Shown one piece after another: positions 12,129 to 56,420 of a stretch of 64,000 bases of DNA. Position 1 is the first letter of the stretch, and each line of letters opens with the position of its first letter. Below the pieces are notes generated by a model. It was not told the DNA's origin. It saw nothing but the letters and a program-made list of their open reading frames with translations, and searched no databases. Source of the DNA: Phoronis australis. Lineage: Eukaryota > Animalia > Phoronida. The DNA is taken from the NCBI GenBank assembly GCA_002633005.1, contig NMRA01000058.1, forward strand, positions 163,585 through 227,584, written 5' to 3'. The position numbers and the translations under genes are program-made.

Positions 12129-12144
12129 GTGAGCAAACTCTTAT

Positions 12145-18944: not shown

Positions 18945-19070
<126 letters not shown>

Positions 19071-25008: not shown

Positions 25009-25239
<231 letters not shown>

Positions 25240-25898: not shown

Positions 25899-25975
25899 AC
25901 TAATGAGCAGAAGGAACGTGATTAACAGCATTGTGAAGTAGTGACTTGGAACCACAACTACATGAGACAACTTAC

Positions 25976-28480: not shown

Positions 28481-30309
28481 ATTATGAATTGATTAAATAC
28501 AACACGTCAAATGCCAAGGACAATAGATGATCAAATTTGTATCAAAAGAACCAAAATTAGAATTAAAAACAATCAAATAAAACAACAATTCTTACACGCT
28601 TGTGTACATTTTGTAATCGTGAGTTTGAAGATCTTGTTCACTTGTATTGGTCTTGTACAACGGTTCAAAGTTTTTGGGTGGGTGTAAACAACCGGTGAAT
28701 CTCTCCAACTGAACTTACATGAGGTTTTGTTTGGCAGGTATGGTGCGGAACATGTTATTAATTTGGTTATACCTTTGGTCAAATATTATATTTGTAAAGC
28801 GAGATTAAACTCTAGTGTTCCATATTTGCAATTACTCAAAATAGATCTCTCTAAATACCACAAGCTTGAAAAAGTAATTGTTGATTAATAATTGTCATTA
28901 TGACTTATTCGTAGAAAGATGGAATCCTATGATTCATCTATTTGTTTAATTTTCGTCTGTGATAATATTCTGATCCCTGGTGTGCTTGCATGCCTGCGTG
29001 CGTGTACTGTAAAATATTTTGTTCAAATAAATACATTATACGAAAAAAACACTCTTATACACTCACGGTGATACCAATACGTTTTCAAGGACAACATGGT
29101 CGTCATTCAGGAATTGTTCCTTAACTGATACACAAGGAACAATGAATGGAAATAGACAGGAACAGTTGATGATTTTCTGATCATGGCCAAGATAAAAAAT
29201 TGTGCTAAAAAGGTTTTTAGTTGTAAGACAGAAAAGAGATAAACATTATACTGTTAATTTGGTACATATTTTCAAGTTTTTGATCTGGATTAACCCTAGG
29301 CTCTGAGATATGGACTTTATGGCTCAATGGCCCTATACATGAAATACTGCCTATAGCTGGAATTCTTCTAAAATATTATGTGAATGAAACATAACTTACC
29401 TGTTACAGAATGGTAAATGTCGACAGGCTATTAACCGTAACATAAAAAGTACTAAGAACAGACAAAAACAAATAACTTCAAATTTGGATCCAACCTTTTC
29501 AAAAGGGAAAATGAGTTACAGTTTCTCTTTTCCTTTTTGACGGTCACTTCAGAATGTAACTTCAGATTCATCAAAACTGTTATTTCAGGATTTGCCTAAA
29601 TAATTCATCAAACTTGCAGCACTTGAGCATCAATGCAGTTAATAATTATTTTATCTAATTTGTTAACTGTGAATGCTTATAGTACGGAAGAGACAAATAA
29701 ACCAAATTCATGCTGGGTACATATTGTTATTACAATTTGCTAGTATCAATTACAAAATGTCTTGTAATAAATAATAAAACACCACTTCCCATAATACACC
29801 TTAAATTTAGTGTTCTCCATGCTGAAGGGAATTACAAACATAAGGACTCAACAAATTTCAAAGGTTTTCAAGTCGCATACAGAGACTCGGTGCCTAATGA
29901 CTCTGGTGCCAACACTGATTCTTCATCACAGTCTTCTATTTCTCTCAAGAGAATGGAGCTGAGCAGGTCACAGATCAAACAGACACACAATAGGATAGGC
30001 TCTAAGTGTCACACAGAAAACTAAACTACCTGAAGCACAACAGAGTTTGTGTATAAAGATACTCAGACAAATGCTCAAGATTAACCAAGATGATGATTAC
30101 AAAACTTTAATAACAAGCTAAAGATTCTCAGGTGCAGCTAAAAACCAAAGCTTTCCTTTGTTACCAACATTTTCCACAATCTACCAAATATTTTTAGATT
30201 CTCAGGCACGTCATCGAATATCCAAGCCAAAACAACACTTAATGCAGGACACACAGACATACAACTTAGGCAAAGTGGATAAAATTAGGTTGACCCCAGC
30301 TTCACTTAC

Positions 30310-30377
30310 CTTGTGCGCAGCTCCAGCTTTGCAAACTGCTAGTGATACTCCCAGGATAGCATTGGCTCCCAGCTTGG
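30310..30377 (-). CDS. ENO: Enolase coding exon 4
   Basis: SKLGANAILGVSLAVCKAGAAHK; ttcag / gtaagt. Confidence 0.97.
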
Positions 30378-30430
30378 CTGAAAACAGCAAGAACCCAGCA
30401 ATACATAAAAAGTCAAAACTTCAAAACCAG

Positions 30431-30831
30431 GGCCCGGTCTCCAATCTTTTTACTCGAAATGAAACTCGAAATTAGGTTTGGCATTTTCTACTCTACTTTT
30501 GGGCGAACTCAAGATAAGTGTCTATTATTCTATGCTCGAGTACACAATAACTTGCGCAGATAATTTATTGCCCTTAGTGCACAGTTTGTAAACCCAATAT
30601 TAAAGCAATAAGTTCGAGTTTGAACTCGAAATTTCGAGTTTTTACTCTAGTTTGTAGCACGAATATAAGGGTCTTCAAGGGCAAACTTGAACTAAAAACT
30701 CCTATGCATAAACTATAATGTATTCGAGCACAGTCTGATAACCAATTATCTCAAGTTGGCACAAAAGGAGCAGAGAAATTGCCAAAAATAATTTCGAGTT
30801 CGTTTCGAGTACAAAGATTAGAGACCGGGCC
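30431..30831. mobile_element. PIF/Harbinger-type MITE
   Basis: CAG|GGCCCGGTCTCCAATCTTT...AAAGATTAGAGACCGGGCC|CAG; 3-bp TSD; palindromic body. Confidence 0.82.
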
Positions 30832-30971
30832 CAGAAAAGAGCTCTAGCGTAACACTTCACCACACCCAACTTCACAAGGTTTCCTTACAGTTTAAGCCCA
30901 GTTTACGCTTAGTCACTTTTCTGCAACACAACAGTTAAGAAATGGTCTGTCGCATAATATGGAGGTGTCAC

Positions 30972-32540
30972 CAGGGCTTGGAATGAAGAATGACAAAAAG
31001 AGGAAATGTTTACGGCCCTAAATACACATTTCAATCTAAACCATACCTCAACAGATCAAAACTTAGTGTGTTGTGTTGGCAAAACGCACTCATCTTAAGC
31101 AGTACCTGACATCTATTTCAGCAAAAACAATGAAGGCAATTAGATGCAACAAAAGATATTAATAAAGATAATGATGAAAAATTTGCAGTCTGAGTGGCAG
31201 GATCTTATTATTGATTTGCTGCAGGTAAACATATAAAATTATTTTCAATTCTTATAATCACGATACAAAATTACAAAAAAAATTGAAAATCGATCCATAG
31301 ATTATCTAGAAAGCCTGAAATGCATACACATTCAATTCCAACAAAAAATTTAATTCCAACGCAAATGGAAAAAGTCAAGATGAAAATCTGCATGTGGCTC
31401 ATACCCGAAATATTAGCATGGAAAAATGAAAGTCAAAAACAACATAATTTAAACTAAAGAATGCATCAATCACAATCCTAAATTGGCCAAACTTTTCAGT
31501 TTCAAATACTAATTATAGGAGTTAATTGTTCATAAGCGATGCTGGTGTAGAAGAAACTATGTGACATAAGAAATATTAGCAGGACACTGAAAATCATAGA
31601 CATCACATAGTGCTGAAAATTGTCTGGCAGAATTTGTAAATGGCTTAGAGCAATCAGATCATTCAGAATCTGTCACGTGATCACTTCTCTCGAACTGCAA
31701 AACTCGAGTCACAAAATAGAACACGAAAAATGTCAAAATAAATTGAAGTACACAAAAGGCAATTTAAAACGCATTGCAGTAACGAGAATAACATTTTGTA
31801 TCCCGTTTCGGTGGCACGTAGAAAATCGCACTCAGGCAGTCAGGCCTCACTTAGGAGCCAACGGCAACGGGCGTGCATGTGGGATGAAACAAAAGAATTT
31901 CATACATCACTGACATCCCACGATTCCAATCCAACAAATAACCGGTTACGGATGAATTTCCTTTCAGGAAGCGTTGTTATTTCTAGTGTTTCATCGTTTT
32001 CAGTTGGTCCTCCGACTCCAACTTAGTCCAAGGCGACTTGCCCACGCACTCCGTAATTGTTCCTTACAGAGCACAAACCTTAACTTATGTTGTTTGTGAA
32101 GACATTGACAGTTTCTTTTATCCACTTTTTCCACGAAATAGTATGTCTACTTCAGGGTCCACACATTTTTGACCAAAATCGCACTATTTGCCGCTGCCAT
32201 TTTATACCAAATGCAGACGCCATTGATGATCCACGCTATCCCAGGCACAGGCGCTTGAATTTTTCAGTTACTCGATTGCCTCTGACATGTTTCTTATATA
32301 TGGTTACGAGTCATCAGGAAATTAGAGCGCCTGTGATCCGCAATTACAATTTTCGTTCCTCCGAAACATAAAGAGCAGTTTCCGCTTTTCGAGTAGTCGG
32401 CAACTCCGCGGTGAGAAATCAATTTGCCTCGATAATTTTATGGCAAATCTGATTTTTTCGCGGAAGAATAATGAAGATATGTGGAGGGAATGAAAGAAAA
32501 TAGCGGAAATCCTTATTTCCGCAAAAAAATCCAAGCCTTG
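30972..32540 (+). mobile_element. Non-autonomous hAT-type element with 6-bp TSD
   Basis: TGTCAC|CAGGGCTTGGAATG...ATCCAAGCCTTG|TGTCAC; GCGGAA subterminal repeats shared with 21400-21586. Confidence 0.78.
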
Positions 32541-33555
32541 TGTCACACAACCCTGGAGCAATGAGATTTGCTGCAACTTGGATGTGAAGTCGCAGATAAA
32601 TTGTTAAGTGCGAACAGGCCTTGAAAGGGAAACGAAACCCTTTTTGATATTATGTTTGGTTTTAACACAGATCTCTGCTTATCTTAGAGACACGTTTTCC
32701 CGTATGTGTTGGTCATTTCTGTTTGCTCGATTACTATTGCAGCACGGAGAGTAAAGGCAATAGTCGGATATAACATGCCCGTACTTTAAGAACCAGGTTG
32801 ATGTCAGTTATTCAGAGGAGAAAACCTGTTCCCTAAATTCGGGCACATTATATCCGACCATTACCGAGAGTGAATGCATACCAATGTAACAGTAATAAAC
32901 ATGGAAAAATGCATGTCCAAGGCTACCCAGTAAAAGGTGACATCAAAATCGGTTGTTTTCCCCTTTAAGGACTACTGCAGTCAGCGAGCTGCAAACCCGA
33001 GCCGCCAGCCCCAAATGAACGATAGCTGCGCTATCAGCTCATGCCATGGCAAAACAACTGAATGAAATGGTGGGCAGTTCATCAATTGTGGTCTTATTTT
33101 AGGCCAGTACCACTTTATGCAACTTTGAATTTACCCCTTTGTCCGAGATTCCGACATAATCCCTATGCTGGTAAATCACCTGTGGCTCCCTCGACACGAA
33201 ATAATACATTACCAGGTCCTCATTTTTGTATTTAGAACAGACTTTGATATCAAGCTCCCAATCCTTCAGTATATTGGGACATACCTTCAAAGAGGATCAC
33301 TTTTAAAGCAAAAGGGGTCTACATGGAGAAAGTTTACTTTTGCTACAACCAATAATAATCACATTGGCCAGAAAATGAGACCTACATTAATTTTACAGAC
33401 CTACTCTTCATTCTGGGTGAAATTTTGATGGTTGCTACAAGTAGGAATCCCGTTATAGAATAGATCCTGTTGAAAAATCACCATTGCCATAAAGAAAATA
33501 TAAAAAAAATTTTGTTTCTAAGAATGGGTTCAGAGTCGTTTAGGATTAGACCTAC

Positions 33556-33684
33556 ATTTGTTCTCGGTTCCATCCAAGTCTAGCATCATCTTGTCAACCT
33601 CTGTCTGTTTAGTGACATCAATCTTCTTGTTGATCAGTGCAGGGGCAATCACATCATTGATATTCTTCACCGCAGTCAGGACCC
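33556..33684 (-). CDS. ENO: Enolase coding exon 3
   Basis: GVLTAVKNINDVIAPALINKKIDVTKQTEVDKMMLDLDGTENK; tacag / gtaggt. Confidence 0.97.
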
Positions 33685-34553
33685 CTGTAGAAAATATAGC
33701 AACAGTACGGTTACACAGGCTGTACACTATCCTATGATTGCATCGTATGTGGACAACAATATATTGTTGCAGGACAGTTGAACTTGAACATGTCATAAAT
33801 CTTGGCTCAGGGATTGCCACCCGATGGGCCAAGCAACATTCAAACAATTGACCTCTTCTGACTGCTTGAAGTACAAAGTTAATTGCCAGCTTATGATCCA
33901 AGAAGTCCTAACATTTTTTTACAAGCAGGCAGAGACCTGTAAGAATGGTACCATGCAGCCACAATAGCAGTAAACACTTGGAGAGCATGGCCGACCTACA
34001 ATGCCATAATCTTGGGGCCCATAAATTTACCAACAAAACAATCCACAAGCTGACATTTTGCACAAGGCCCATATGCTAACAGCAACAACTGAAGAATTTG
34101 GCAGCAGCCTTTCTTGAATTTCAACAACTGGGAATTTTAGTATGGCATCAAGTTCCAGGCAATACTGTCATGTGTCCATATGTAAATCTGCAGTGTTGTA
34201 GGATGAGCAAAATATAAGACTGATGTAAAGTTGTGATGGTTTACCACGGTTTCAAGATGTGTACAGCATCTCCATATTCTGAAACTTTGGGGAACATAGA
34301 GTTAATAGAAACCAGATTGGAGAACAAAAAACTTTCCAGCGAAAACATTAAGGTGGACTTCAGATTGAGAATATAGGAGGGCAATTCCATTTGTGACGGA
34401 CGTACAACCAGAGAACATTTTGATCAACTGTGAAAAAAATGTTCACCCTCGGAAAATGATTAATATATCAATTGATAGGTCTCACTGATAGCTTTCAAAG
34501 CATGAATAAAGTTTTCCCCCATCTTTTAATTTGACTGAGATAATTAGCTTTAA

Positions 34554-35712
34554 CCCTAATCCTGCGTTAAGCGAGGTCAGTCGACAAGCCAATTATCCTG
34601 TTAAAATGCGTGGGATGTACTCAATCGCCTATGATAAGCTACGGCTAGACTGCGCAAGGAGGGTGTACTCACCCCAGGACACTGGTGTTTTTCATTCAGA
34701 AATTGTGAAAGCCATGTATGCTGTTTATATATATGTGAGCATGCACATTCCACAGTTCATAGTTTCCTGTACATTTTTCTGATTTACAACATACGGCTGT
34801 GATGAGTTGTTGCCGAGATATTTGAAAGTTTACGCAAGTTTTATCTTGGCTGGTGCCAAACGTGGTAAGATGACTGTTGACCAGTTTCTTGAGGAAGTGT
34901 TCATGGACTCAGATAGTGAAAACGAGCTGAAATTGGCACTCAAAAGTGACAGTGACAGTGACTGGGAAACTAATACAACAGTCACAGGTAATGCAGATTC
35001 TATCGATTCGGATCTCAGTGCAATTTTGGAGGAGTTACCGTTCCCTGAAGCTGAACTTGGACGGGCCAACGAAGATGCTTGGCTCACGCCCTTCGTGCAT
35101 AATACAGAGCCTCTGAAACATGATGTAACTCATTCAGAACTAGATATTTCCGTGACTTTTTCACAGAATAGCTTTGTGTCCCTACCCATGTTTCAAGTTT
35201 TTGCACACCAAGGTGAACTTCAAAACAGACTTTAGCAAGCGACTACACCAGTCATAAATTTGTTATCGTGCAAAGTTGAGGTATGTTATATACTGTACAT
35301 TCTTGTTAGTAGATGTGATGTTACAGACAATAAATCTGCTTTATTAAACATGCAAGTCCCATGAATTCCCTTATGAAAATGCTTATTACGGTTTTTGAGT
35401 GTCAGCTATAATGTTCTCATGTGCGAAAACAGATAAAAACAAAGGGTGTCCAGTTTGAAAGTTTATATAATTATTTACACCAAGGCTATGGTAAAGATAT
35501 GTATATGGTGAAAATCTCCATTAAATTCTGAACAACTTTTGTGCAGACTACTTTTATGTGAAGTTGACATAACCCCTTCAAATTTCCAATTTAAAAATGT
35601 TAGGTAATTAATCTGAGTGACCTTCATAACAGCCCAGTGCACAGCAGCAGTGGTGACCTACTTAGCTCAGCACACAGGGAGTTGTCTGAATAGAGGCTTA
35701 GCAGGATAAGAG
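34554..35712 (+). mobile_element. Non-autonomous piggyBac-like element
   Basis: TTAA|CCCTAATCCTGC...GCAGGATAAGAG|TTAA; internal acidic ORF (34807-35235, DSDSE/SDSDSDWE) like piggyBac transposase N-termini. Confidence 0.75.
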
Positions 35713-36449
35713 TTAAAGGGGTGTGACAGACATAGGCAGAGAATTTGATTTTTTTTTTAAATTTTAATGTCAATTTTCTTTGAGTTGCATTAAGTTACAA
35801 TTTTATGTTTTACATGATGATTTAGTAGAATGTTTGCAAAGTACAACACACTAATTTTTTTGATGATATCTGCTAATAATTTTTGTCAGACAACTCGATA
35901 AAAGTTGAGTTAGTGTGACGGATGTACGCTCTTAATTTCTAGTATTAAATTGTTTGTTGTGACTAAGATATCAATTCAGAATGATTCAAACTTTTGCAGT
36001 ATTTAAGCTATATTGGTCTTTTGCTACTAATTCAATACCAAATGACCTTTTGCATGAAATCATCACAGGTAGGGCTATACCAGGAATATACTCTAGGACT
36101 TTAACTTTTCAATACATTTGATTAAAGATATAAATCAGGTGAATGCGCTTCTTTCTTGAAAACTAATACTATTCGGGGGTATTCATCCACCGCCAGTGTT
36201 TACCATTTATGCCTACTAGGTTGTCTGCTCAATCAATCTTCGGTGGCCACAGAAATCAAAGAAACAATGTAAATGTTGAATAATGTTCCTGAATTCAAAT
36301 GAAGTGAACGTGCTGCCTAGGCATTTTGAGCACACCTGAGTGCTGCCATTCACAAACTGCGAAACCACGACGACTGGACTGTGCGAGTTCTTTGCTTATT
36401 CTTCCCGTTAAAAGTACTTCTATTTTACAGGTAAATGGCCAAGACCTTT

Positions 36450-37478
36450 GATCACATCTGATTTAGGCCAGAACAGAAGCACAAACTTTAAAATTTGTGT
36501 TTCAGTAAATAACGACATATCTATCTAACGTTTCGGTTTATTACTCTAAACTATTTTCAAGGAAACAGTTCACAGACTCAAAACAGGCGACACAGGTAGA
36601 GAAGAGACTGTACAGGTACACGTCAAAATACATTGTGAGGGGGAGAGACCAGAAATCAAAACAGTTGGAGCTTAAATGAACCAATATTTCTATTGAGGTA
36701 ACGCTCAGCATGATTCAACCATATATGCATAGCCTCCTTTATGAGGAGCCTGAGAGTGGCATTATCCTTGTCTAGGATCTGAACACCAGAGCAATCTATA
36801 GTGTGACCAGTTATCAATGAATGATTGAGGACAGCACTGTGTGTGTCTTTACAGTGTTCTTTGACTCAGATGCTAAGAATCCTGTTGGTCATTGCAATGT
36901 AAAACTGTTCACAGTCACTACAGTCGAGTTGGTACACAACATGACTTCTTTGAGAATTACTCAATGGTGTTTTTAGTCTCAACAATGACAAGTCTGTTGA
37001 CAGGTTTGAAGATTGCTACGTGATGCAAACATGGAGTAATAGCTCCAAGCATTCTCTTAACTTGCCTCTCGACTTCACAACTACTGTTACCTATATAGGG
37101 GAGATTGAGAAATACTTTCTTCAATTCAGGCCCATGACAAACCTCCGCAGGTGTCCTGCATTGGTTACGTAAAAAGCTGTCAGTGCAAGATTTTATAAAT
37201 GTTTTAGGGTATCCATTTTGAATCAAGAGCAAAGAAGTTCCCCGTCAAACAAGTCAGAATTGCTACATATCTTAAAGGCCCGATTAATCAGACCATTGAC
37301 CAGACCAGTTTTGTGCTTTTTAGGAACAAAACTATCCCACTTGAGGTACAGACCTGAGAAAGTGGGTTTTCTATGATGTAGATAAGTCATTCTGATGGTG
37401 GATTAATACATCAAGAAAATAAACCGAAACGTGGGATAGATATGTCGTTATTTACTTACGCGCTAATTTTAAAATTCG
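36450..37478 (-). mobile_element. 5'-truncated Penelope-like retroelement (RT thumb + GIY-YIG remnant) with inverted partial pLTR
   Basis: Minus-strand peptides FLDVLI..RKPTFSGLYLKWDSFVP..INRAFKICS, NGYPK, LPYIG, VVYQLDCSDCEQFYI..EH..LLIKEA; flanked by 14-bp direct repeat TGGCCAAGACCTTT (36436-36449 / 37479-37492). Confidence 0.88.
36521..36566 (-). ncRNA. Penelope-associated minimal hammerhead ribozyme motif (variant core)
   Basis: Minus strand TTTCC-TTGAAAA-T-AGTTTA-gagtaa-TAAACC-GAAACGTT-AGATAG. Confidence 0.55.
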
Positions 37479-37769
37479 TGGCCAAGACCTTTATTTGAGC
37501 CTTTAGTGCAGATAGGTCCACTTTTGTCCACTTTTTTAAAAAGTGAACTGATGCCCATGCACTCTTACACCGGGGTTTTCAAATTCAATTGTAAACAAGT
37601 GTTCGGGGTGTCCCGCATCAGGTCAGGTGTTTACCTAAGTCAACCAAGATGACAGTCATTAATGAACTTGACAGAATATTTCAAAACTGGTGCCTGTATT
37701 AACCCTCATGCACTGTTCATGGCATGCTGAACAAAAACAGCAGACATAAAACACCTCTGCATCTACTTA

Positions 37770-38030
<261 letters not shown>

Positions 38031-38366
38031 TTAAAACAAACAGGTGAAAATAGGAGTCAACACAAACACAGGGCTTGCAAGCAATTACAGAAAATTGAGA
38101 CCAGGAGCGGAGAAACAAATTTTTATTCCGTTCTAATATACTAAGCTCTAATACAGAATTCTCTGGTAAATATCATTATAACTTTATTACATTTATACAT
38201 ACAGTCTAAATGGAAACTTACGGACAGTCATAAGATTTGGTGAAAGACCCCATTTAAACTCGGTATAAGACAATGTTGTAATACTACAGTATCATAGCAA
38301 AAGAGGCCTCTCAGTAAACCTTTATTACCTAACTCTTATTATAAATTTGATGCAAAACCTTCATAC

Positions 38367-38454
38367 CTTTTGGTGTGACAAGGTCAACCTCGACTGTTGG
38401 GTTACCGCGACTGTCAAATATTTGACGAGCAGCAATACGTGACACCCCAGACAT
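38367..38454 (-). CDS. ENO: Enolase coding exon 1 (ATG at 38454; acceptor 13 nt upstream implies a 5'-UTR intron)
   Basis: MSGVSRIAARQIFDSRGNPTVEVDLVTPK; ttttttcag acceptor at 38468-38470; donor gtatga. The ten exons sum to 1314 nt = 437 aa + stop. Confidence 0.96.
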
Positions 38455-42811: not shown

Positions 42812-43990
42812 ACAGGCGTCCTCAGCTTCTGATCGTCCCCAATACACTATATATAATACTAAAAGGTATGACACTCCGGACAAGAAATTCCACGAGTGCT
42901 TCACTTCAGCCGTCCATGTCAAACACATAACTCAACAAATTTACACAAAACAGGGTTTCAACAAACCATTAGTAATTGTTCTTTTTTCTAATACCATTTA
43001 GGGTGTCCTGCTCCAGCGAAATCGCAACAAAGTCGCGGTCAAAGCACAAAAATGTTCCCAAAAAGCCGACGCATCAGTCCTCCTTTGACGGTTCGAGGTC
43101 AAGGACGCCAATTGCCAATTTGTCACGGAGCGTCATGACATCGACAACTCCACACCATTTTGTAACCTTCCGTAATAAACCGGCATTTGCCGTCCATCCA
43201 TAACTCACCAGATAATTCCGTACCGTCATTGACCTCGAACCGTCAAAAGAGGACTGATGAGTCAGCTTTTTGGAACATTTTTGGGCTTTGACAGCGAATT
43301 TATTGCGATGTCGCTGGAGCAGGACACCGTGGGCGTGAAAGGTATTAGAAGAAAGAACAATTTGTAGTAATAGCCGAGATTACCCGACCCGGGAATCGAA
43401 CCAGCAACCCCCATAAAACCGGCAAACGTGCTAATCATTCAGCTAATAGGCAATTGTCCCATAGCAAGTAGCTAACAGAGGCTCATATGATTCACCGGAA
43501 GCACATCACAACATTCCCCCCTTTTCCTACAGAACAGGCACACCATCAGGAAAGTGAACACCAGGATGTCTCGCATACAGGTCATCAACGTCCCTTGGTA
43601 CCTTTACCACCACAACACAGGTGAACACAAGGTAATCCCTCATACAGGTCCTGACTCCTGGAACCTTCCATGCTCACCGTCCCGGGGTCCGTGGGTACTA
43701 GTTGGCAGTGCTTCATCGGTAGATCATACGTTTGCCGGCTACGCCATTTGTAGTAATAGCCGAGATTACCCGACCCGGGAATCGAACCAGCAACCCCCAT
43801 AAAACTGGCATGCGTGCTAACCATTCAGCTAATAGGCAATTGCCCTTAGCGAGTAGCTAACAGTGGCTCATATGATTCACCGGAGGCACATCTACAACAA
43901 ATTACTAATGGTTTGTTGAAACCTTGTTTTGCGTAAATTTAGTGAGTTTTGTGTTGGATGTGGAGGGCTGAAGTGAAGCACACAAGAAAT
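42812..43990. mobile_element. Long-TIR MITE (TA|CAGG terminus, Tc1/mariner-like), host of the TRIM; second partial copy at 47118-47408
   Basis: Arm ~42890-43105 is the reverse complement of 43225-43990 once the LTR element is removed; the left arm recurs at 47118-47408. Confidence 0.75.
43363..43899 (-). mobile_element. Complete TRIM (miniature LTR retrotransposon) with tRNA-like LTRs
   Basis: Two 151-bp TG...CA LTRs (43363-43513, 43749-43899), PBS TGGCGTAGCCGGCA (43733-43746), PPT AGGAAAAGGGGGGAA (43514-43528), 4-bp TSD AATT, and A/B boxes inside each LTR. Confidence 0.93.
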
Positions 43991-46900
43991 TTAGGATATC
44001 TATTTTCATTTTGTGAAGTCTAGAGTAGATTTGGTAATTGGACTTTGAACTATTTTACAGTAAAGTGAAATGCTTAGATTTTGATATGGTGGTAGAGCAT
44101 TTAGTTCTACAGACTAAAATTAAAGACAGCAATCTTGGAGGATTTTGGAGTTATGGCAAAATGCGCACCGGAGGACATTAAAAAGTAATGGTTTTTCATA
44201 AGACTATTTTCAATTTTTTATTTATATTCCAATTCAATGAGCTGTGTTAGGTGTCAAAGTGATGACTGAGCGTTAGTAGTGACAAAGGGAAAGAAATAGG
44301 CAAAAATTTTGTACGGTTTTTGAGATATTATGTCATACATGCCGCAAACATCAAAATTTTAAAATTTTCCTAGGTTTTTCAATTTCAAATTCTAATAAGT
44401 TTTTCAAATTTAATGTCCTGTTATAGGTGTTGACATGATGTCTGAGTGTTAGAACAACATGGTACAAAAAGAATTAGGTAATATAAAGCACAATGCATTC
44501 AATAAATCGTGAAAAGTAGCCGATTCTACAACATTGTTCAACTTTGAGATTTTTTAAATTTAAAATTACTTTTTTGAATATGCATTTACTAATACAGAAG
44601 CATTAATGTTTCAGTGACCTTTCTATGATGATGTTATGATATTCTGAAGTTTCAGAGCTCTATGTGCGTCCTTTTTTAAAATATAAGGTCTTGAAGTTGC
44701 ACTCAGAATGAAAAACGCAGTGTTACAAACCAGAAAAAAACTAAGTAGAGTTGTTTTTGTTCCAATTTTGATTAGTCTTAAAATACAAAACAGTAAGAAC
44801 AAGTTAGCCCGTTTTTAGCAGTTTATAAACTATACAAGCAGCGAAAGCACGGGTAGCAGCTAGTGGGAAACGCCGAGGGGAAATAGCTACACCTGAGAGT
44901 GAACCGATCGAGTGTTCATCACAAGAGACAGGAATACTTCTTGAGGAGAACGTGTTCAAAGCTTCAAGCAGAATTTCTGTCACCTGTCAGATTTTTGTAG
45001 GCAATTAAGGACTGTGGATGTGGGATTATTCCCCTAGTTCTTTCTAGAGCATTTGACCCTGCTGTGACACAAAGTACGGTAATCAGATATTCTTCAGTTT
45101 AAAGTGAAAACTAATAATGCATTTAAAATATTGTATAGTACACAAAGTATATAGATGTCAGTGGCGCATTTAGAGGGGGGCCAAGGGCGTCATGGCCCCC
45201 ATAAAATTCTCCCAGATTCCATTTGGCAGTCCGGGGGTGTGAATGTCTGAAGGGCAAAATTCTGGCTAATACTCTATCTGCCGTGCCCCTCAACTCAAAA
45301 TCCTGGATTCGCACCTGGATGTATTTACAAAACTTGCATCATAAATGTACATACTGAGGTAGAAAGCCAGCTAGCTGTATGAGGACTTTCGTCAACATAC
45401 AATTGAAATAAATTGTTGCACCCAACTTTGATGTGCGCAGACGTTTTCAATGAGGTTGTTCACGTAAATTGCTAAGAACCCAGCATCAATTATCGCTCTG
45501 TGTTTTATTGTTTTGGCCTTACAAAACTTGATCGACCCCGGGACATTTTGATACCTTGTTGAAGCTACCCCTGGAGCGCGTGTTTGAGTAAACCTGAACG
45601 ATAAATATTTTCGAAAATACATCCCAAAAATGCACAAAAAGTGAATTAGTGAAATATGCTGTTTTTAAGATACATTTGAAAAAAGAAGCCACTCACTCAC
45701 TGTTTGTTAATCATATTGTGAATACGAACACGTCTGGGTATTCGTTTGACGTTCGTAAGCAGACGAACACTGGAAACTTCAACACCTGATGTCGCAGGAC
45801 TGCGAAGAAGAGGAAATAAGATCGTTCACGACTTTAGGGCACTCACGACTTTAGGACCTCTGACGGTAATGTTGTTAAACTTGAAATTTTGGTTTGCTCA
45901 CTCTAAATTTGTCGCATATCTTCTCAAATTTTGTTGATTTCATGAAAAGGTGGGTGTAAAGTGGTGCGCCTGATCCAAGAGAGCTGGGAATTGTATATAA
46001 GGACACTTCATTACATTGTTTAGGTATTGCCGACAAAGTTTGAAATGGGCATGCTTAAAAGTTTATCCGACTATTTTATCCCTGAGCTGTGGCTTGCAGC
46101 AGGCCTCGTTCACTATAAATCTGCTATATTCGACAAGTGTTGACATGACAGTTCGCATACTTCATAGTTTTGGGAATTAATGTAATTAAGGAGATCGAAT
46201 ATAAAAAGAACTGTTCTTTGTGCCACAAACTTACCCCAAAACTAAGAAATGCCAACAAAATCAGACGACCTTGAAATCGACCGGCAAATGCTGAGCTGCG
46301 ATCACCAGGTCTCGTAATCACGAGGTAACGTGTATTTTCGAGATATGACAAAATTTATAGATTACTTTTATTACACTTCAAATTATCCATGGAAATTTGA
46401 TGATTTATGTAATTTAGTTGATCAATGTGTTTGAAAATAAATTATTTACAAAATGTTGCAACGCCCCCACGTGAGTCATTATGTCGACCAAAACATGGAA
46501 GTTAGTACTTTTGGAAGATATTGCCATTTTTTTTTGGCTGGCTGACAACTGATGGAATTTCTGCAGAAGCTAATGGTCTAATTTAATTCATATGAACTTG
46601 AAATATGAGACCTAATATCGATTTCATCGAGTGTTTGAAAGATTCGCCGAAGTTCAGGTACATTTATATATCATTATTCTGGACTCTGAGTCTGACAGTG
46701 ACAGTCACTGAGTCCGTCATAATTAATGTCATTGACTGAGTCATGAGAAATCCAGTCGCAATCTAATGCATGTGGCAAACTACTATTTTATCGTGAAGTA
46801 AATACTTTTTCAATGGAACATAATGGTTGAGTGGTTCTCAACTGGGATTTGAATCCTATTTCTCAATGACTTCCGTTTCGGTTAATCGAACACGTCTAGT

Positions 46901-47493
46901 AAAAAATATAATGTGGGATTACAGTTAAGGACTTTGCCAGTTCCTGAATTAGATCACTAATCAACCCTCCCTAGTGACCGACTCCTAGTATAGACAAATT
47001 GATAGTAGGCTGGGTTGGTAGAAAATTTCTTGTTCTTCCATTGAATTGACTAAAAATTAGCAGATTACACATATAACACGTTATAAGTTTTTGCACTTGA
47101 CGCACCTGTACAACACCACAGGCGTCCTCAGCTTCTGATCGTCCTCAATACACTATATATAATACTACAAGGTATGACACTCCCGACCAGAAATTCCACG
47201 GGTACTTCACTTCAGCCGTCCATAACAAACACAAAACTCAATAAATTTACACAAAACAAGGTTTCAACAAACCGTCAGCAATTGTTCTTTCTTCTGATGC
47301 CATTCACGGTGTCCTGCTTCAGCCAGATGGCAACAAATTCGCGGTCAAAGCACAAAAATGTTCCCAAAAAGTCCACGCATCGAGCCTCCTTGGAAGGTTC
47401 GAGGTCAATTTCACATATTTATAGCAAAATGCCTTATCTTCATTCTCGGGTAACTTCAAATGCAAAATATATACTGTGTAACGAGACAGAAAA

Positions 47494-49205
47494 GGAAGGT
47501 GGATACAAAAATGTTTTGACTGTTATTACATTTTTATGTTAACCTAATCATTAATTCTGTACAGTTTAGCGAAAAATATAGTTTTAATTCTGAAAACCCG
47601 AAGTTGTTTTTTTAATTATGTTTGATCTATCCTTAGTAAGTCATATGGCTTGACTGCCTACCAGCTTGGTAACTGACAAATGGAGGGGAGTTTGTACTAT
47701 GACACATGCTCTAAACTGATCCTGCCATTAAACATTGCGTAACCAGCTGATCAGTGGATCAATGGATATAGCTGTTGTAGTGAGTCTTAGAATAAATCCT
47801 TTTTGTGATGATGTAGAAGTTGGTGGTGAAATGGTGAATTCCTGTTCGAAGCCCGAGCCTGTTTGTTCGTCTGCAAAAATATACAAGTTGAGTATGCTAA
47901 ATCCCACCGTAGTCATCGCTAGAGAAGCAGAAATTTATTCCGTTGGCATCCAAATCTGGAACTGCACTCAGCTTGAGGAGGCCATTCAGAAATCGTGCGT
48001 GTGTAAGAAATGTTGGAAAAGTGTGGTTTTCTTGCGAGAGGACACTGAGCGTCGACATGGGCGGTGTTGCATGATGCGATGAGAGTGCAGGCGCTGTCAA
48101 GACACGCCGCCCGCTCACAGGCACAAGGCATGGACTTACTGCATGGCGTCAGAGTGGAAAGTTTTTTGAGATAGGAATGCACACCATTGGTTGCTGGAGA
48201 AACAAGGTGTCAAACTCACCGTGTTTTTGAACTTTGATACTGCCCGTGACTCAAACAGTTAGAGAAATAACTCAGTGTTCAACATATCAAAATTATTCTA
48301 GTGCATCGATTTAAACGTATCCTTGAATTAAAACTTAATTTGATATATGATTTTAGTAGAAAGCAAGATAAGAAATTTCGGTAACTTTTTGAGTATCTCA
48401 CCCATGTCACAGTGTTGTATTGCAATTGACTGATACAATACGTAGGGAATAATAAGAAATAGGTCTACACACTACCACACTGACTAGAGAGTCTAGATGA
48501 GGTGGATAAAAAATCCGAGACTCATGACTGGTTGGCACACCATGTAACGCAGTGCCCATGTAACAGCAGACAGTAGATCAACGCTGAGCTCTGCCATATT
48601 TGTTTTAGTGGTCTGTTGTCAGTTCGCAAAAGTGATTAAAATTATGCTGTAAACAAACTGGTACTGGTATGTCATATTTTCAGCTTTATTTCTATTGCCT
48701 GCTTAACTTCAAAACCATTTTTCTTTACTCATGATTTCACAGTGGTGGCAAGATTTACAGGCATATTTTTTATAGTGCATGGGTCATATTTTGCAAATTT
48801 TTCAAATTTGAAATCCACCGTAACTCAAGTACAATGGCGTGATATATCGACTACATTTTTAATTAATGGACAGAAAGTGACCAAATGACAGGAGGCGTGC
48901 TCAACACAACTCACACTCAAAAAGTCCACAAAATCAAGACCATAATTTAATACATACTTGGTATGGATAATTAGATTATTGCCGTAGGAAACCATTAATA
49001 ATAATTTTAATGCAGTTTGAAAAGAAATCGAAGTGAAATTTGATTTTTTGAAACTTATAGAATTCAATATTCTAAAAAACAAATACAGTAAAAGCTTTCT
49101 TTTTCAATTTTTGTTTCACTTTCAGAGTCATGTTCAACTAGTTGTAACCTTTTTTTACGTGTTTTAGGCAGGAACCTGGAGATTTGACCAGTGTATACTC
49201 TTCCC
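47494..49205 (+). mobile_element. Kolobok-like non-autonomous element, copy 1, with transposase N-terminal remnant
   Basis: Ends GGAAGGTGGATAC / GTGTATACTCTTCC; Cys-rich remnant IWNCTQLEEAIQKSCVCKKC..LREDTERRHG..*ECRRC (47735-48100); inverted homolog of 49819-51584. Confidence 0.68.
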
Positions 49206-49818
49206 TCAAGTTTTGTTTACTGTTTATCTGAAGTCAAAGGTTACAGGACTGTCACTCAAATCGAATTCGCTTGCGAGTCGCTGAACTGCTAGTCTGTAAC
49301 TTGGTGTTCACTAAGGCAGCAAGTTGAGAGAAAAATTAAATCTTCCCCGACATTCATTATTTTGATTGGTAATTTGAAATTACACTGTTTCAGTCTCTAA
49401 CTCATGACAACCTTTATCACCGAGTCGATTTCTATTGTCCATTTCGTCCTTGGTTTTTTGATATTATTCTCCTCGGCGCTTTGTGTGCATGCAATGAACC
49501 GTTGGGCTACTTACTGCTGGCTCTGCCTGCTGACATAGTTGACACGCGGTATATGAAACCCCACAAACAAAGTTAAACATTTTTAGTGATAATTAAGTTA
49601 ATTACACACTGAAAATTCAGTTGACATTGCGACTGAATGTTGAAAACCGAACATTGTTTAGGCATGTATAGGTAATTATGACCTTCTTCAGCATTCCTGG
49701 CCTTGTAGTCTAGATGTTCAATCTGGTCTTGTGGGCAAAGTCTGCGGTTCGCCTTAATGACGCTGACCAGTATTGAGTGAAAAGAAGTTTTCACTGAATA
49801 ATTAACCAAAGACCTTAA

Positions 49819-51584
49819 GATAGGTGTATACACTGGTCAGATCTCCAGGTTCCTATCTAAAATAAGTATAAAGGGGGTTTAACTAGTTACAAATGACTCT
49901 GAAAGTGACAAAAAGCAAAAAAAAATTTACTGTAGTTCGTTTTTTTTTAAATTGTATTTTTTATTTTTCAAAAAATCCAATTTTACCTCGAATATTTTTT
50001 CAAAATCCACAGGGATTATCATCAACTGTTTCCTTACGTAATATTCTACTTATCCATACCAAATATATGTACAAAATCATTATGATATTGATTTTGTGGC
50101 TTTTTTGCGTGTGAGTTGGGGCAAGCACACCACTTGCTGTCATTTGGTTACTTTCCGTCTACTAACTAAAAATCTGGTCCATGTATCAAAAAACCCTGGC
50201 ATGCTATTTTGCTCCAGTCCTAGAGGATTTCAAATTTGCAAATTTCATAAAAAGTGACCCACGTGTTACGGAAAAATAGGCCCGAGAATCTTGTCACTAA
50301 TGTAAAATCATGAGCCGAGAAAAACGCCCCTTGAGGTCAAAATTAGTTCAGAATACGCGGTCATCATGCTCCAATTTTTGTTGATGTACTAGAAATAAAG
50401 TTGATATTTACTTCATGTTTAGAAAATGTGACAAACCTGTTTGTTTATAGTGTAGTTTTAATCATTTTTGCGAACTTGTGAAGCACGACAGACGACCAAA
50501 ACAAATATGGCTGTCACGTTGATCTATTGTCTGCTGTACTGGTGTGCGGACCACACATCATTAAAACCATGTGTTGATTGTTTATGCGACTCCATCTGAA
50601 CTCTCCACTCAGCCTGGTAAAAGACTCTCTAACTGTATTACATAGACTTATTTGTTAATTGGCCTATTCCAATATATGTAGTTACCGTCTCTTCATCAAC
50701 CAATATATATGTGTTATATCAAATCCCCTGGTTACTGTCTACATAAGAATATTGGTGACGAGGATAAAGAACTACTTTCATTGTAATGGTTCAACATTTT
50801 CACGTGCCTGTACCGCCAACATTTTGACCGAATGTACTTTGGGATGAGAAAACAGCACTTTCAGTTAAAAAATCCCCTGAGTTTGGCAGCCTAGTTTCTC
50901 CATGGCATGTTCCTAGCACAGAAGCACGGTTTATCTCCAAAACTCTACTTAGACGGTATGTAGTTGTCCATGTCTCACGTGCGCGGCATGTCTTCACAGC
51001 GCGTACATGCACTCTCATCGAATCGTGCAACACCACCCACGTCGACGCTCAGCGTCCTCTCGCAAGACACCTCACCTTTCCGACTTCTCTTGCACACGCA
51101 CAATTTCTGCGCTGACTCCTCAAGCTGAGTGCAGTGATGGCTTCGGTAGGACTTGACGTACTCAATTTATTTTTTTTGCAGATGTACAAACAGGCTCAGG
51201 CTCGGAACAGGAGCTAGTTCACCATTTCACCACAAACTTTCACATGGTCAAAAATAGAATTACTTTATTCTTGGCTTTGCTACAACATCAATATCAGCTG
51301 GTACAGCGCTCTCGATTGCCCGGTTACGCAATTGTTTGTTGACAGGGTTAGATTAGAGCTAGTGTCCTGGTATAAGGTCCGCCCCACTTGTCAGTCACTG
51401 AGCTGGTGAGCACTCAAGCCATATGACTTACTGAAGCTTGGTCAAATATAATTAAAACAACAACTTTGGATTTTCAGAATTATTTTATTTTTCTTCAGTA
51501 TACTGTGCATCAAGAATTAAAGGTTAGGGTGATATAAAAATGTAAAAAACAGTCAAAATTAATTTTTTTGTGTATCCACCTACC
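49819..51584 (-). mobile_element. Kolobok-like non-autonomous element, copy 2
   Basis: TTAA|GATAGGTGTATACAC...GTGTATCCACCTACC|TTAA (TTAA TSD, purine-starting TIRs). Confidence 0.75.
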
Positions 51585-51876
51585 TTAAGATTTTCACTGC
51601 TCACTATTTAATCAGCTTTTTCTCCGCTTCAGCAAATCGACTTTATTTGATATTACGAACAACAGTTCTCAAAAACGTCTTGGTGGATTTTGCTGAAACT
51701 TTTCAGACTGATATTTTATTCATCAATCTCGAAAGCACTGTTTGGATTTTTCGTATAAAGGCCTAGTTTTTGTGTAATGTAACTAAGATAAATATGACTG
51801 CTATTTTTTACAAAAGTACCTTAGGTTTTGCAAGTTGATTAGTCATAGAAACCAAACTAAGAGACTACTGTTACTA

Positions 51877-52105
51877 CCGTATTCCCCCTAATAAGCTCCT
51901 AGGGTGCTTATAAAAATTCGCTTCAGGGAGGGGGGCGCTTATTATAGCTCAAAGTGGTGGAAACCCAGTCTCCAAAACAGGTGAAATCCCAAGCTATCCT
52001 GGCCACGTGCTTTTAATAAAGGTCAAATTTTTATTAGTCTTCCATTCCCGGTTTTCACATGTACAAAGAAATTTGGATTCCTGTTGAGGGAGAAGATCTG
52101 TATGG
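51877..52105. mobile_element. Family B (Tc2-like) fragment
   Basis: TA|CCGTATTCCCCCTAATAAGC terminus and internal match to the reverse complement of ~1755-1865. Confidence 0.7.
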
Positions 52106-52134
52106 GTGTAAACAGTAATTGCACAGATATCGGG

Positions 52135-52207
52135 TCCTCAGTAGCTCAGTGGTTAGAGCACTAGACCGGCAATCTAGAGACCTGTGGTTCAATTCCCAGT
52201 TGGGGTT
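52135..52207 (+). pseudogene. tRNA-like sequence (SINE head or tRNA pseudogene), apparent anticodon GGC
   Basis: TAGCTCAGTGGTTAGAGC D-arm, CTAGA-CCGGCAA-TCTAG anticodon arm, GGTTCAATTCC B-box; acceptor and T stems imperfect. Confidence 0.65.
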
Positions 52208-52289
52208 CTTGATTTTTCTGCATTTATTTGATAAAGAAAACTTAACAGTTTACCTCAAAAACACTGTTCGGAATTTTTAATTACTGGCG

Positions 52290-54539: not shown

Positions 54540-55865
54540 CCGTATTCGCTGTAATAACCACCCAGGGCGCTTAGAAAAGTTCGTTTCAAGGGGGGCGCTT
54601 ATTATAACCCAATGCCGTTGAAACCCGGTTTCCGAAACGGGTGAAATCGGAAGCTAAGATTCATTATGTTTACGCTCTGTGACGTATATGTAATCTATGA
54701 AAGACTGTCAACAAAACTGTGGTGCATTGCTATCAAACTTTGCTGCTAAATTACGATCATTTTACAGAAAATTGTGCTGAAATCCCAGGGCGAAAACTCG
54801 CCGACTGCCTGCCTCGCAATCGTCGATATGGCGACTTGAATGCTTGAATAAAAATATGGTTTCGACTCAAGCAAATTATCTGAAATCCTCGTTAAGTTTT
54901 CCAAGTTTGGCGTCCCTAAGATTTTGAAGTTCCCGTGGAGCCGGGATCATGTCAGGTTTAAGTGCAAATCTATGCTATATCGTGCCATCTACATGTATGA
55001 TCGACAACATGAGAAAAATGTCTGGACGAACACACATGTTGCTGTCACGTGACGATTGGTTATAAGTTGTCTGCGTTTGTGAGTAAACGAGCGCGTGCGT
55101 GTCACCAGAGTTTATTTGCCAGAGCAGAGACCGTCTTTTGGCCAGAGCCACGCAATCTAACGAACTAGATGTGCATTGTATCTAAAGAAATTTGCACAAG
55201 CAGTTGGCCTAAACCAGAGCGTGTTTCACTGAGCACTTGCCGGCCTCGTGCTAAAAACGTTCGACTTTTGTCTCGGTAAGGCCATATTAGTCGCGGTGTG
55301 GCGGGATGCGTATGTGAGGGTGTGTAAGCATTCATTGTCAGAGGTTATTTTATCAGATATTTGGCTTAAAAACACCAGTTATGGTTAATCAAACAATTCA
55401 TTTAAAAAATAACGCAAACATTTTTTATAGTATTAGAAACTGTCGGAAATTAGTGCCAATATTCATTTCTTGCCGATGCTATGCTACCCGTTTCATGAAT
55501 GGATAGTTCCCGACTAATGCCTTTGATGACAGGTTCATGTATGTAGCGCGCGCTTCCCAGCCACGTGCTTTTAATACTCGCAATATCAGCAGAACTTTTG
55601 TGTTCGTTTTGAGGCATGACGGAAGTTTGAATCATATAGTCGCGGCTAAATACCGACGTAACGGCTAGGCTCGTGGTCTACAAATTCTGCGCACAATGAT
55701 TTTTTTCAGGACTGTCGAATATTTTTGATAAATTGAAGACGTTACTCTAGAATTTTAGGACTGTAGGTAAGACAGTTTTCGCACGTACACGTTCATAGAC
55801 TGGGCGCTTATTTTAGCAAAGGGGGGCGCTTATAGGGGCATGGGCGGTTATTACGGCGATTACGG
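54540..55865. mobile_element. Non-autonomous Tc1/mariner (Tc2-like) element, family B full copy
   Basis: TA|CCGTATTCGCTGTAATAACCACCCA...TGGGCGGTTATTACGGCGATTACGG|TA. Confidence 0.85.
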
Positions 55866-55867
55866 TA

Positions 55868-56420
55868 GTCGTTGATGACCTGTACTCCTTCTGGAAAATG
55901 GTAATTCGCCATTGCCTTCCTAATCAGTGAATGCATCATGGAACCATAAGCATTCTCTGAATCTAACCACATGACTGCCAAGTCTGACTTGTTTGCCTTT
56001 GTGTTGCCGATCAGCTCCATTAGAACCGCATTATGCTCCAGGCAACCTGACTGCCCTAGTACACCACCTTTATGCACTTTGGGGTCGATATTTCCATTCA
56101 CCAGGGCGTACTTGACAATTCTTGATGCAATCACTGCGAAGAAAATTTTGCACTCCACATCAATCAGGGAAATCACGTTGTAGTCTTTTACAGACACTGC
56201 ATCTTTGATATTTTTTGGATATAACAAGCCTCAGCCTTGCCTCAGTGATGAGGAAGTTTATCTTCAATTTCCATACGCCTTTTAGTAGCTTCCATAACAG
56301 TCTCAATAGGCTCGGGCACTTCTTGTATCGACGATAATCAAAAATTCCAATTGAGGTTTCAAGATCAATTGTGATGTTTCCTTCAGAAAGGGTTTCATTA
56401 AAATCAACCATATTGTTTTT
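55868..56420 (-). pseudogene. Non-LTR retrotransposon reverse-transcriptase remnant (HERO/NeSL-type, RLE clade)
   Basis: YKKCPSLLRLLWKLL, ISLIDVECKIFFAVIASRI, KGGVLGQSGCLEH, DLAVMWLDSENAYGS (RT motif WLDL.NAYGS); frameshifted. Confidence 0.85.

What the first reader, a model, noticed from the sequence alone, without database searches (positions are those of the whole stretch)
43363..43899. Complete miniature LTR retrotransposon whose LTRs are tRNA-like Pol III cassettes
Seen in sequence: a 537-bp non-coding element (minus orientation) with every LTR-retroelement hallmark. It has two 151-bp TG..CA LTRs, a PBS TGGCGTAGCCGGCA 2 nt from the 5' LTR, a PPT AGGAAAAGGGGGGAA abutting the 3' LTR, and an AATT TSD. 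The empty site (GAACAATTACTAATG) survives in the opposite TIR arm of the host MITE (~42966-42981), which confirms the boundaries. Each LTR contains, in sense orientation, an A-box (TAGCTGAATGG) and B-box (GGTTCGATTCC) closed by an acceptor-like stem (ATTGCCT/GGGTAAT). Established: the PBS matches the metazoan tRNA-Ser 3' end (...TGCCGACTACGCCA) at 13/14 positions; 4-bp TSDs are typical of Gypsy integrases; plant Cassandra TRIMs carry 5S rRNA in their LTRs, and tRNA-in-LTR elements (Ajax) have been reported from molluscs. Inference: a SINE/LTR hybrid transcribed by Pol III and mobilised in trans by a tRNA-Ser-primed Gypsy element; possibly a new family or host range.
Basis: partly seen in the sequence, partly recalled or inferred. 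Interest (0 to 1): 0.82.

Follow-up and report, generated by a model that had tools for sequence, protein, structure and literature searches.

The report
tRNA-bearing miniature LTR retrotransposon (Helenus)
This is a real, multi-copy, 537-base gene-less jumping element with a decayed tRNA-type promoter sequence in each end repeat: a new family of the Helenus kind described in 2024, possibly in a bryozoan (a phylum not yet listed for it) and likely copied by a Gypsy retrotransposon's enzymes.

Summary
The structure is confirmed. There are two 151-nt TG..CA LTRs (142/150 identical), a PBS, a PPT, an AATT duplication, and boxes A and B 43 nt apart. Public runs show a repeat family with unrelated flanks and empty host copies lacking exactly 541 nt. 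Most other copies match the tRNA-Ser 3' end at the one PBS position where this copy differs.

The class is known: Helenus (Kojima 2024, PMC10886601), not Ajax, which is 5S-derived. No consensus in that paper's supplement matches. This scan noted Helenus-type elements before on other DNA (40 notes), none alike in sequence.

Two corrections. The 'acceptor-like stem' is out of tRNA register, and the cassette is not a tRNA. Pol III transcription and the Gypsy helper remain inferred; RNA-seq is inconclusive.

Two additions. The host may be a bryozoan (one gene, about 55%). Upstream of box A lies a hairpin plus a 10-nt palindrome that also marks many published fish, coelacanth, bivalve and nemertean Helenus LTRs and is not mentioned in the paper's text. 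This hints at one old lineage rather than repeated origins.

The parts
43363..43899 (-). whole element, 537 bp, non-coding TRIM
43749..43899 (-). 5' LTR, 151 nt, TG..CA
43363..43513 (-). 3' LTR, 151 nt, TG..CA; 142/150 identical to the 5' LTR (JC distance 0.055)
43900..43903 (.). target-site duplication AATT, 5' side
   Evidence: joint 43358>43900 skipping 541 nt with 4 letters fitting either side
43359..43362 (.). target-site duplication AATT, 3' side
43733..43746 (-). primer-binding site, 13/14 to the 3' end of tRNA-Ser; most other copies read the matching base at 43738
43514..43528 (-). polypurine tract abutting the 3' LTR
43514..43748 (-). internal region, 235 nt, with an old 43-nt internal duplication (43541-43583 and 43608-43650, 31/43 identical)
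43846..43860 (-). leader hairpin in the 5' LTR (5-bp stem, 5-nt loop); degraded in the 3' LTR of this copy
43835..43844 (-). 10-nt perfect palindrome GGCAATTGCC; the GGG at 43845, 14 nt before box A, is the predicted Pol III start
   Evidence: start site inferred from recalled SINE geometry
43821..43831 (-). box A, 5' LTR
43778..43788 (-). box B, 5' LTR, starting 43 nt after the start of box A
43435..43445 (-). box A, 3' LTR (one change at 43435 that most other copies lack)
43392..43402 (-). box B, 3' LTR
43801..43804 (-). T4 run between boxes A and B in the 5' LTR; a Pol III transcript would have to read through it
43415..43418 (-). the same T4 run in the 3' LTR, the only candidate terminator inside the element
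42885..43992 (.). host fold-back (MITE-like) repeat: arms 42885-43107 versus 43224-43362 plus 43900-43992; the TRIM interrupts the right arm
42967..42981 (+). empty site in the opposite arm of the host repeat
47118..47409 (+). second, partial copy of the host repeat, with the empty site (AATT 47280-47283)

Best explanation
[quoted passage not shown] Shown: LTRs, PBS, PPT, TSD, many copies with unrelated flanks, empty host copies, tRNA-like box spacing, no cloverleaf. Inferred: Pol III would start at the GGG 14 nt before box A in the 5' LTR (43845), read through the T4 at 43804-43801, and end at the same T4 in the 3' LTR (RNA about 431 nt, terminal repeat about 45 nt) or further out in the flank. 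tRNA-Ser would prime minus-strand synthesis at the PBS and the PPT would prime the plus strand. Strand transfer would rebuild both LTRs with the whole promoter, and a Gypsy integrase would insert the DNA. This copy is not fresh: its LTRs differ by 5.5% and it departs from most other copies at many places.
For: Anatomy. Family: DNA runs give 25 (X1) and 23 (X4) contigs leaving the element at 43363, and 11 (X3) and 28 (X4) at 43899, with flank agreement of only 0.38-0.42. Empty host form skipping 541 nt in X4 (2 contigs) and in RNA reads of X7, X8 and X9 (5, 7 and 3 reads). A second 4-nt duplication is suggested in X9, where the dominant flanks end and begin with GGGC; the pairing is inferred, no read spans it. 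PBS: the tRNA-Ser complement printed in two papers matches 13/14, and other copies read the matching base at 43738 in 2788/2834 (X1), 338/340 (X3) and 1043/1080 (X4) of contig depth and in 64/74, 63/67 and 48/49 RNA reads. Box A: other copies keep TGG at 43435 (3839/4009 in X1; 55/60, 67/77, 76/77 reads). Class definition, 4-bp TSD in animals and PBS sharing with Gypsy. Read 1 lies on the plus strand more often over the internal part (sums bins: about 1.3, 1.6 and 2.2 fold), which would be the element's sense in a dUTP library.
Against: No sharp RNA start or end was found (table 6). Reads lie on both strands. Of the reads laid on 43250-44010 (host arms included), 76-78% run on into unlike sequence, and only 35 of 903, 39 of 801 and 52 of 829 are 95% or more alike, so they come mostly from other copies inside host transcripts. 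Over the 5'-LTR bins the strand excess is the other way round, and library strandedness is not established. The only T4 lies between the boxes and would stop part of the transcripts after about 45 nt. No helper element was seen: no Gypsy domain among 105 of 106 ORFs scanned in the window, and no genome is held. In X7 and X8 the dominant left and right flank consensuses do not form a duplication (low agreement, mixed loci). The variant tables were cut to 40 of 314 and 40 of 190 rows, so box conservation across the family is only partly seen.
Confidence: 0.8

Rival explanations
1. Same element, but the tRNA cassette is a vestige: copies are transcribed by Pol II or by read-through from host genes, and boxes A and B do no work.
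For: RNA reads are on both strands and mostly run into flanks; no sharp ends. A T4 lies between the boxes. Kojima himself offers no experimental proof of Pol III use for Helenus.
Against: The boxes keep exact tRNA spacing while the stems have decayed, and other copies keep the box A consensus where this copy lost it. Standard RNA-seq is poor at showing short Pol III RNAs (general knowledge). Molluscan Helenus were aligned to tRNA-Lys-TTT (legend), so the T4 may simply be inherited from an anticodon loop.
Confidence: 0.12
2. The helper is a BEL/Pao or Copia element rather than Gypsy.
For: No helper was found here. Kojima's Fig. S2 lists a BEL element with a PBS like that of some wasp Helenus, and fungal Helenus use Copia.
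Against: The TSD is 4 bp, as in animal Helenus linked to Gypsy; Copia-linked fungal families make 5 bp.
Confidence: 0.05
3. Not an LTR element: a local tandem duplication of a tRNA-derived SINE that mimics LTRs.
For: The repeat unit has a SINE-like head, and the bases AAT follow both LTRs.
Against: PBS and PPT sit at the canonical places (chance of the PBS match about 4e-5 in a rough uniform model). Contigs of other copies run from LTR into the internal part (table 8). Empty sites lack exactly element plus 4 nt. There is no A-rich or repeat tail.
Confidence: 0.02

Closest known systems
Helenus (TRIMp3), Kojima 2024, Biology 13:119, PMC10886601. Whole main text read; supplement parts 1, 5, 6, 7, 9, 10, 11 of 11 read, parts 2-4 and 8 only searched by motif; figures not seen, legends seen
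   Same: Under 1 kb, non-coding, two LTRs, PBS, PPT, tRNA-derived boxes (TRGCY..YGG, GGTTC) in sense in each LTR, 4-bp TSD as in animals; sizes inside the published range (311-1263 bp).
   Different: No consensus in Data S1 shares its motifs (tagctgaatgg 0, gggtcgggt 0, tgttgtgatgtg 0; tggcgtag 4, all inside fungal internal parts; line breaks can hide hits). No PBS in Fig. S2 begins TGGCGTAG. There is no T-run after box B. The host may be a bryozoan, absent from Table 1.
tRNA-Ser-primed mussel families Helenus-2_MyGa, -2_MoPh, -2_LimFor; also Helenus-2/-3_PiNo
   Same: tRNA-Ser-type PBS, long internal part (226-268 nt against 235), LTR of 141-156 nt, PPT with GAAAAGGGGG, and a hairpin-plus-palindrome leader before box A (by eye). 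The PiNo PBS reads TGGCGTCGCCGG.
   Different: PBS letters differ (TGGCGCTGCGAG in the mussel families). No extended LTR or internal similarity is visible by eye; not aligned by program.
Ajax (Kojima 2024)
   Same: TRIM with a small-RNA-derived Pol III promoter in the LTR; by eye its LTR also holds a GGGAATTCC-TTTA..CAGTGG remnant before the 5S part.
   Different: 5S-derived boxes A, IE and C; 5-bp TSD; tRNA-Leu primer; two nemerteans only.
Cassandra (plant TRIM with 5S), as described in PMC10886601; the original papers were not read
   Same: Pol III unit inside the LTR; transcript starts in the 5' LTR and ends in the 3' LTR.
   Different: 5S rather than tRNA; plants; it is the only TRIMp3 with experimental support.
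biv-TRIM of bivalves (Satovic 2019, PMC6934838; six passages seen)
   Same: Animal TRIM of similar size.
   Different: No canonical PBS; tRNA similarity lies in the inner domain, not in the LTR.

Membership tests
Helenus | TRIM under 1000 bp with no protein coding | tested here: met
   537 bp; six-frame translation full of stops; no Pfam hit
Helenus | two LTRs enclosing a PBS and a PPT | tested here: met
Helenus | tRNA-derived sequence in the LTR with box A (TRGCY..YGG) and box B (GGTTC) | tested here: met
   boxes 43 nt apart; 0 in 100 shuffles. Too decayed for the Rfam tRNA model or ARAGORN, so origin from tRNA rests on motifs and spacing
Helenus | 4-bp TSD (animal families) | tested here: met
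   AATT here, with three kinds of empty site; one further inferred case, GGGC
Helenus | interspersed multi-copy family | tested here: met
   11-28 contigs per end and run with unrelated flanks; copy number not measured
Helenus | PBS complementary to a tRNA 3' end | tested here: met
   13/14 to tRNA-Ser as printed for the human tRNA; the host's own tRNA-Ser was not available
Helenus | PBS shared with an autonomous Gypsy of the same genome | not testable with these tools
   no genome held
Helenus / TRIMp3 | transcription by RNA polymerase III (proposed, not shown, in the paper) | tested here: inconclusive
   both strands, mostly read-through, no sharp ends
Ajax | 5S rRNA-derived promoter in the LTR | tested here: not met
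   no Rfam 5S hit; tRNA-type boxes instead
Ajax | 5-bp TSD | tested here: not met
   4 bp
functional tRNA gene | cloverleaf with paired acceptor and T stems | tested here: not met
   4/7 and 3/5 pairs in register; no ARAGORN or Rfam call
catalogued Repbase/Dfam family | sequence identity to an entry | not testable with these tools
   only the supplement of PMC10886601 could be searched

The most novel reading that the evidence does not exclude
A large share of animal Helenus elements (cypriniform fish, coelacanth, oysters, scallops, mussels, nemerteans and this possibly bryozoan family), and perhaps Ajax, descend from one very old Pol III-driven LTR lineage. It is marked by an undescribed leader: a TAGC-loop-GCTA hairpin, then a 10-nt palindrome at the transcription start, then box A. 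The palindrome keeps its symmetry while changing its letters (GGCAATTGCC, GGGTTAACCC, GGGATATCCC), so the leader would be a functional cis-signal for start-site choice, strand transfer or packaging, against the published view of repeated independent SINE insertions.
Probability: 0.4. Interest if true: 0.5.

Novelty: new member of a known kind. Interest (0 to 1): 0.3.

Why it matters
As a class this is known, so the element itself is a good new example: an uncatalogued family with a PBS not in the published list, and possibly a seventh animal phylum. The more useful point is the shared leader. If it holds up in a proper alignment, it gives a marker for finding such elements, argues for one ancient or horizontally spread lineage instead of many origins, and names a concrete cis-element to mutate. 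That would help test the open question of how a Pol III transcript gets into an LTR retrotransposon's particle. Such LTRs also inflate tRNA gene counts in annotation (shown for rust fungi in PMC10886601).

Tried and rejected
Whole genome: none held, so no copy number, solo-LTR ratio, TSD table or helper search.

tRNA and Rfam: ARAGORN and Rfam find nothing in the LTR, so a functional tRNA is rejected. The acceptor-like stem is rejected as out of register.

Runs: the look-up of sequencing runs listed no RNA holder. Eight of the 9 listed runs were laid; X2 was not. Summed contig depth was not used as a copy number. X6 (organism B, share 0.04) gave 29 contigs mostly under 90% alike, so it is a hint of a relative only.

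Collection scans: the family's own box A..box B pattern gave 0 hits in metagenome and viral contigs. The leader pattern gave 0 hits in prokaryote genomes and 12 in metagenomes, of which 10 have no palindrome and no box B and are treated as chance.

Host placement: enolase failed. Named marine invertebrates are all 78.8-83.5% identical over 406 residues, and no bryozoan enolase was in the set.

Literature: 'TRIMp3' finds only the original paper among relevant hits. Helenus+Ajax+retrotransposon lists 4 papers and Helenus+TRIM+tRNA from 2024 lists 7; the 2026 meeting report only cites the 2024 paper. Two bryozoan/TE searches gave nothing relevant. Two searches on Pol III read-through of T4 gave no usable source. 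These cover only the open library.

Not done: a computed alignment against the published Helenus consensus sequences, so the cross-family leader comparison with them is by eye plus motif counts.

Full report
Observation. On the minus strand the 5' LTR is 43899-43749 and the 3' LTR 43513-43363, each 151 nt with TG..CA ends; they have 142 identities, 8 mismatches and two one-base gaps (JC distance 0.055). The 235-nt internal part starts AA-TGGCGTAGCCGGCA and ends in a 15-nt purine tract touching the 3' LTR. AATT flanks both ends. The element interrupts the right arm of a fold-back repeat (arms 42885-43107 versus 43224-43362 plus 43900-43992). The empty site is present in the opposite arm and in a second partial copy of the host repeat at 47118-47409. 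There is no other copy in the window, no coding capacity (105 of 106 ORFs of 75 aa or more scanned, one with an N left out), and no genome is held.

The tRNA-like cassette. Box A (43831-43821) and box B (43788-43778) start 43 nt apart, as in a short-variable-loop tRNA (spacing rule recalled). A combined pattern hits twice in the window, here and at 52142, and 0 times in 100 shuffles. The cassette is not a tRNA: ARAGORN and Rfam do not call it, it folds no better than shuffles, and in register only 4 of 7 acceptor and 3 of 5 T-stem pairs form. The only run of four T in the element lies between the boxes, once per LTR.

It is a family. Nine public runs were listed and eight laid. In DNA runs of organism A, contigs leave the element exactly at its ends into unrelated flanks: 25 (X1) and 23 (X4) before 43363, 11 (X3) and 28 (X4) behind 43899, with consensus agreement 0.38-0.42. 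X1 and X4 are the same sample. A joint 43358>43900 skipping 541 nt (537 + 4), with four letters fitting either side, is seen in X4 (2 contigs, shorter side 25 nt), X7 (5 reads) and X8 (7); X9 has 3 reads from one start with three letters fitting. These are host-repeat copies, or an allele, without the insert. In X9 the dominant flanks end and begin with GGGC, which would be a second 4-bp duplication if they are one locus; no read spans it, and in X7 and X8 the mixed flank consensuses show none. Where this copy is imperfect, other copies mostly are not. At 43738 they read the base that makes the PBS match tRNA-Ser at 14 of 14 (2788/2834, 338/340 and 1043/1080 of contig depth; 64/74, 63/67 and 48/49 RNA reads). 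At 43435 they keep the box A TGG. The tRNA-Ser sequence comes from oligonucleotides printed in PMC3299991 (human tRNA-Ser template) and PMC13478228 (tRNA-Ser(AGA) probe), one passage seen in each. The variant tables show only 40 of 314 and 40 of 190 rows, so family-wide box conservation is only partly seen. Summed depth is not a copy number and I give none.

Expression. Three 2026 RNA runs (18-19% of each read) gave 903, 801 and 829 reads on 43250-44010, host arms included. Only 35, 39 and 52 are 95% or more alike, 76-78% run on into unlike sequence, both strands are covered, and no sharp start or end appears. Over the internal bins read 1 lies on the plus strand about 1.3, 1.6 and 2.2 times as often (my sums), which would be sense for the element in a dUTP library; over the 5'-LTR bins the excess is reversed. 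This shows family sequence inside host transcripts and neither supports nor excludes a Pol III RNA.

What is known. Kojima 2024 (PMC10886601; main text read whole, supplement 7 of 11 parts read, the rest motif-searched, figures not seen) defines Helenus as TRIMs with a tRNA-derived LTR sequence. They occur in fungi, a plant and six animal phyla, with 4-bp TSDs and Gypsy-like PBSs in animals; Ajax is the 5S type of nemerteans, with 5-bp TSDs. Pol III use is proposed there without experiment. The element meets every testable Helenus criterion and fails both Ajax criteria. No catalogued consensus shares its motifs and no listed animal PBS begins TGGCGTAG, though tRNA-Ser-primed families exist in mussels and pearl oyster. 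Repbase and Dfam could not be searched. Earlier notes of this scan hold 40 findings with these words in at least 14 genomes, eight shown, all filed as Helenus-type; none resembles this sequence. I had the paper before seeing them.

Host. The window holds an intron-rich enolase gene (minus strand, about 18950-38450) and a CARD caspase gene (plus strand, about 965-14500). Enolase places the host among non-arthropod invertebrates and no closer. For the caspase, the best named relative is from the bryozoan Bugula neritina (only 10 candidates): 160 of 244 residues identical over six exon cores. It scores 762 against 606, 601 and 592 for hemichordate, amphioxus and sea-anemone proteins among 156 compared. 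None of the 20 clusters I looked up was named as a mollusc, annelid or brachiopod, so the nearest rivals are missing. I put Bryozoa at about 55%. It is not in the paper's host table.

A shared leader. Just before box A the 5' LTR has a 5-bp hairpin (43860-43846), then GGG, a perfect 10-nt palindrome (43844-43835), then box A; 10 of 200,000 shuffles give this arrangement, a test made after seeing it. In the 3' LTR of this copy it is degraded. By eye the same order occurs in the two coelacanth families, the cypriniform group (hairpin clear, palindrome weaker), many oyster, scallop, pen-shell and mussel families and two nemertean families. It is absent from others, among them Helenus-2/-3_CGi, the Tegillarca, Lingula and ctenophore families, and the wasp and fungal entries I read. 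Motif counts agree: ccctttagc 12, tctttagc 23, tctttggct 5, gctagtggg 6, each first appearing in part 5 or later, after the rust-fungal entries (nine places per term shown). Ajax LTRs show a remnant by eye. As an independent test I scanned metagenomes with a pattern that did not require the palindrome. Of 12 hits, 10 have neither palindrome nor box B and look like chance. The other two (L006, L012) begin with TGT like an LTR, one directly after a purine tract and the other with box B at 44 nt, and both have a perfect 10-nt palindrome with different letters. They resemble the oyster families that helped shape the pattern, so they confirm the arrangement in real DNA, not its breadth. The paper's main text has no 'hairpin' or 'palindrom' and favours multiple origins; its Figure 2 alignments, which I could not see, may show part of the leader. 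Common descent, horizontal transfer and convergence all remain open.

Mechanism. Shown: the cis-elements of an LTR retrotransposon, dispersal, and insertion with a 4-bp duplication. Inferred: Pol III would start at the GGG 14 nt before box A (12 nt in L006 and L012; SINE heads start at a like distance, recalled). It would read through the 5' T4 and stop at the 3' T4, giving about 431 nt with a 45-nt terminal repeat, or stop in the flank. L012 has a T4 at the same place and molluscan Helenus were aligned to tRNA-Lys-TTT (legend), so the run may be an inherited anticodon-loop feature and a leaky terminator at most. A tRNA-Ser-primed Gypsy element would supply reverse transcriptase, RNase H and integrase.

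Verdict. Real, well built, and a new member of a known kind. Interest 0.3, carried by the possible new phylum and the shared leader.

Noticed in passing
window 52100-52222 (+): tRNA-like unit called tRNA-Ala(GGC) by ARAGORN and scoring 54.5 bits on Rfam tRNA. A GGC anticodon is unusual in animals (recalled). By eye its head, including bases upstream of the acceptor stem, closely matches the oyster Helenus-3_CGi/-4_SaGl LTRs, and a T-run follows. It may be a solo LTR or SINE of a second Helenus-like family; no TSD found.
   Followed up: partly
window 42812-43992 and 47118-47409: The host is a very abundant fold-back repeat with arms of at least 245 nt. Other copies continue past 43981, where this one is cut, and 201 contigs of X1 leave it at 42812. 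A different repeat with a similar terminal motif ends just left of it, near 42783. Superfamily not determined.
   Followed up: partly
window 18948-38445 (-): Enolase gene with 10 coding exons over about 19.5 kb; the TRIM lies about 5 kb upstream of the first coding exon found.
   Followed up: partly
window 965-14497 (+): CARD-caspase (caspase-2-like) gene, convergent with enolase; closest named relative is from Bugula neritina.
   Followed up: partly
window 5246-7011, 16556-17566, 22865-24189, 58825-60427: Four copies of a long repeat built of internally repeated units of roughly 450 nt, 67-85% alike, in both orientations.
   Followed up: no
window 8729-9115, 12142-12583, 25504-25884, 30430-30832, 47492-51586, 61405-62244: Several further palindromic or inverted-repeat elements; the region is rich in fold-back repeats.
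   Followed up: no
window 55811-56230 (-): Fragment with a weak reverse-transcriptase match (RVT_1, E 9e-4, below the curated cut-off), probably a decayed non-LTR element.
   Followed up: no
L006:1000-1235 and L012:505-650: Two Helenus pieces in a public metagenome assembly, close by eye to the oyster families Helenus-2_CVi and Helenus-1_CVi; probably host DNA in the sample.
   Followed up: partly
run X6 (organism B), laid on window 43420-43888: A second organism holds related LTR and PBS pieces at 85-95% identity, so the family may extend beyond one species; small share, few contigs.
   Followed up: no
supplement of PMC10886601, Ajax-1_LiLo and Ajax-1_NGe LTRs: Both carry what looks like the Helenus palindrome and a tRNA box A remnant just before the 5S part, as if Ajax arose from a Helenus by replacing the 3' half of the cassette. 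By eye only.
   Followed up: no
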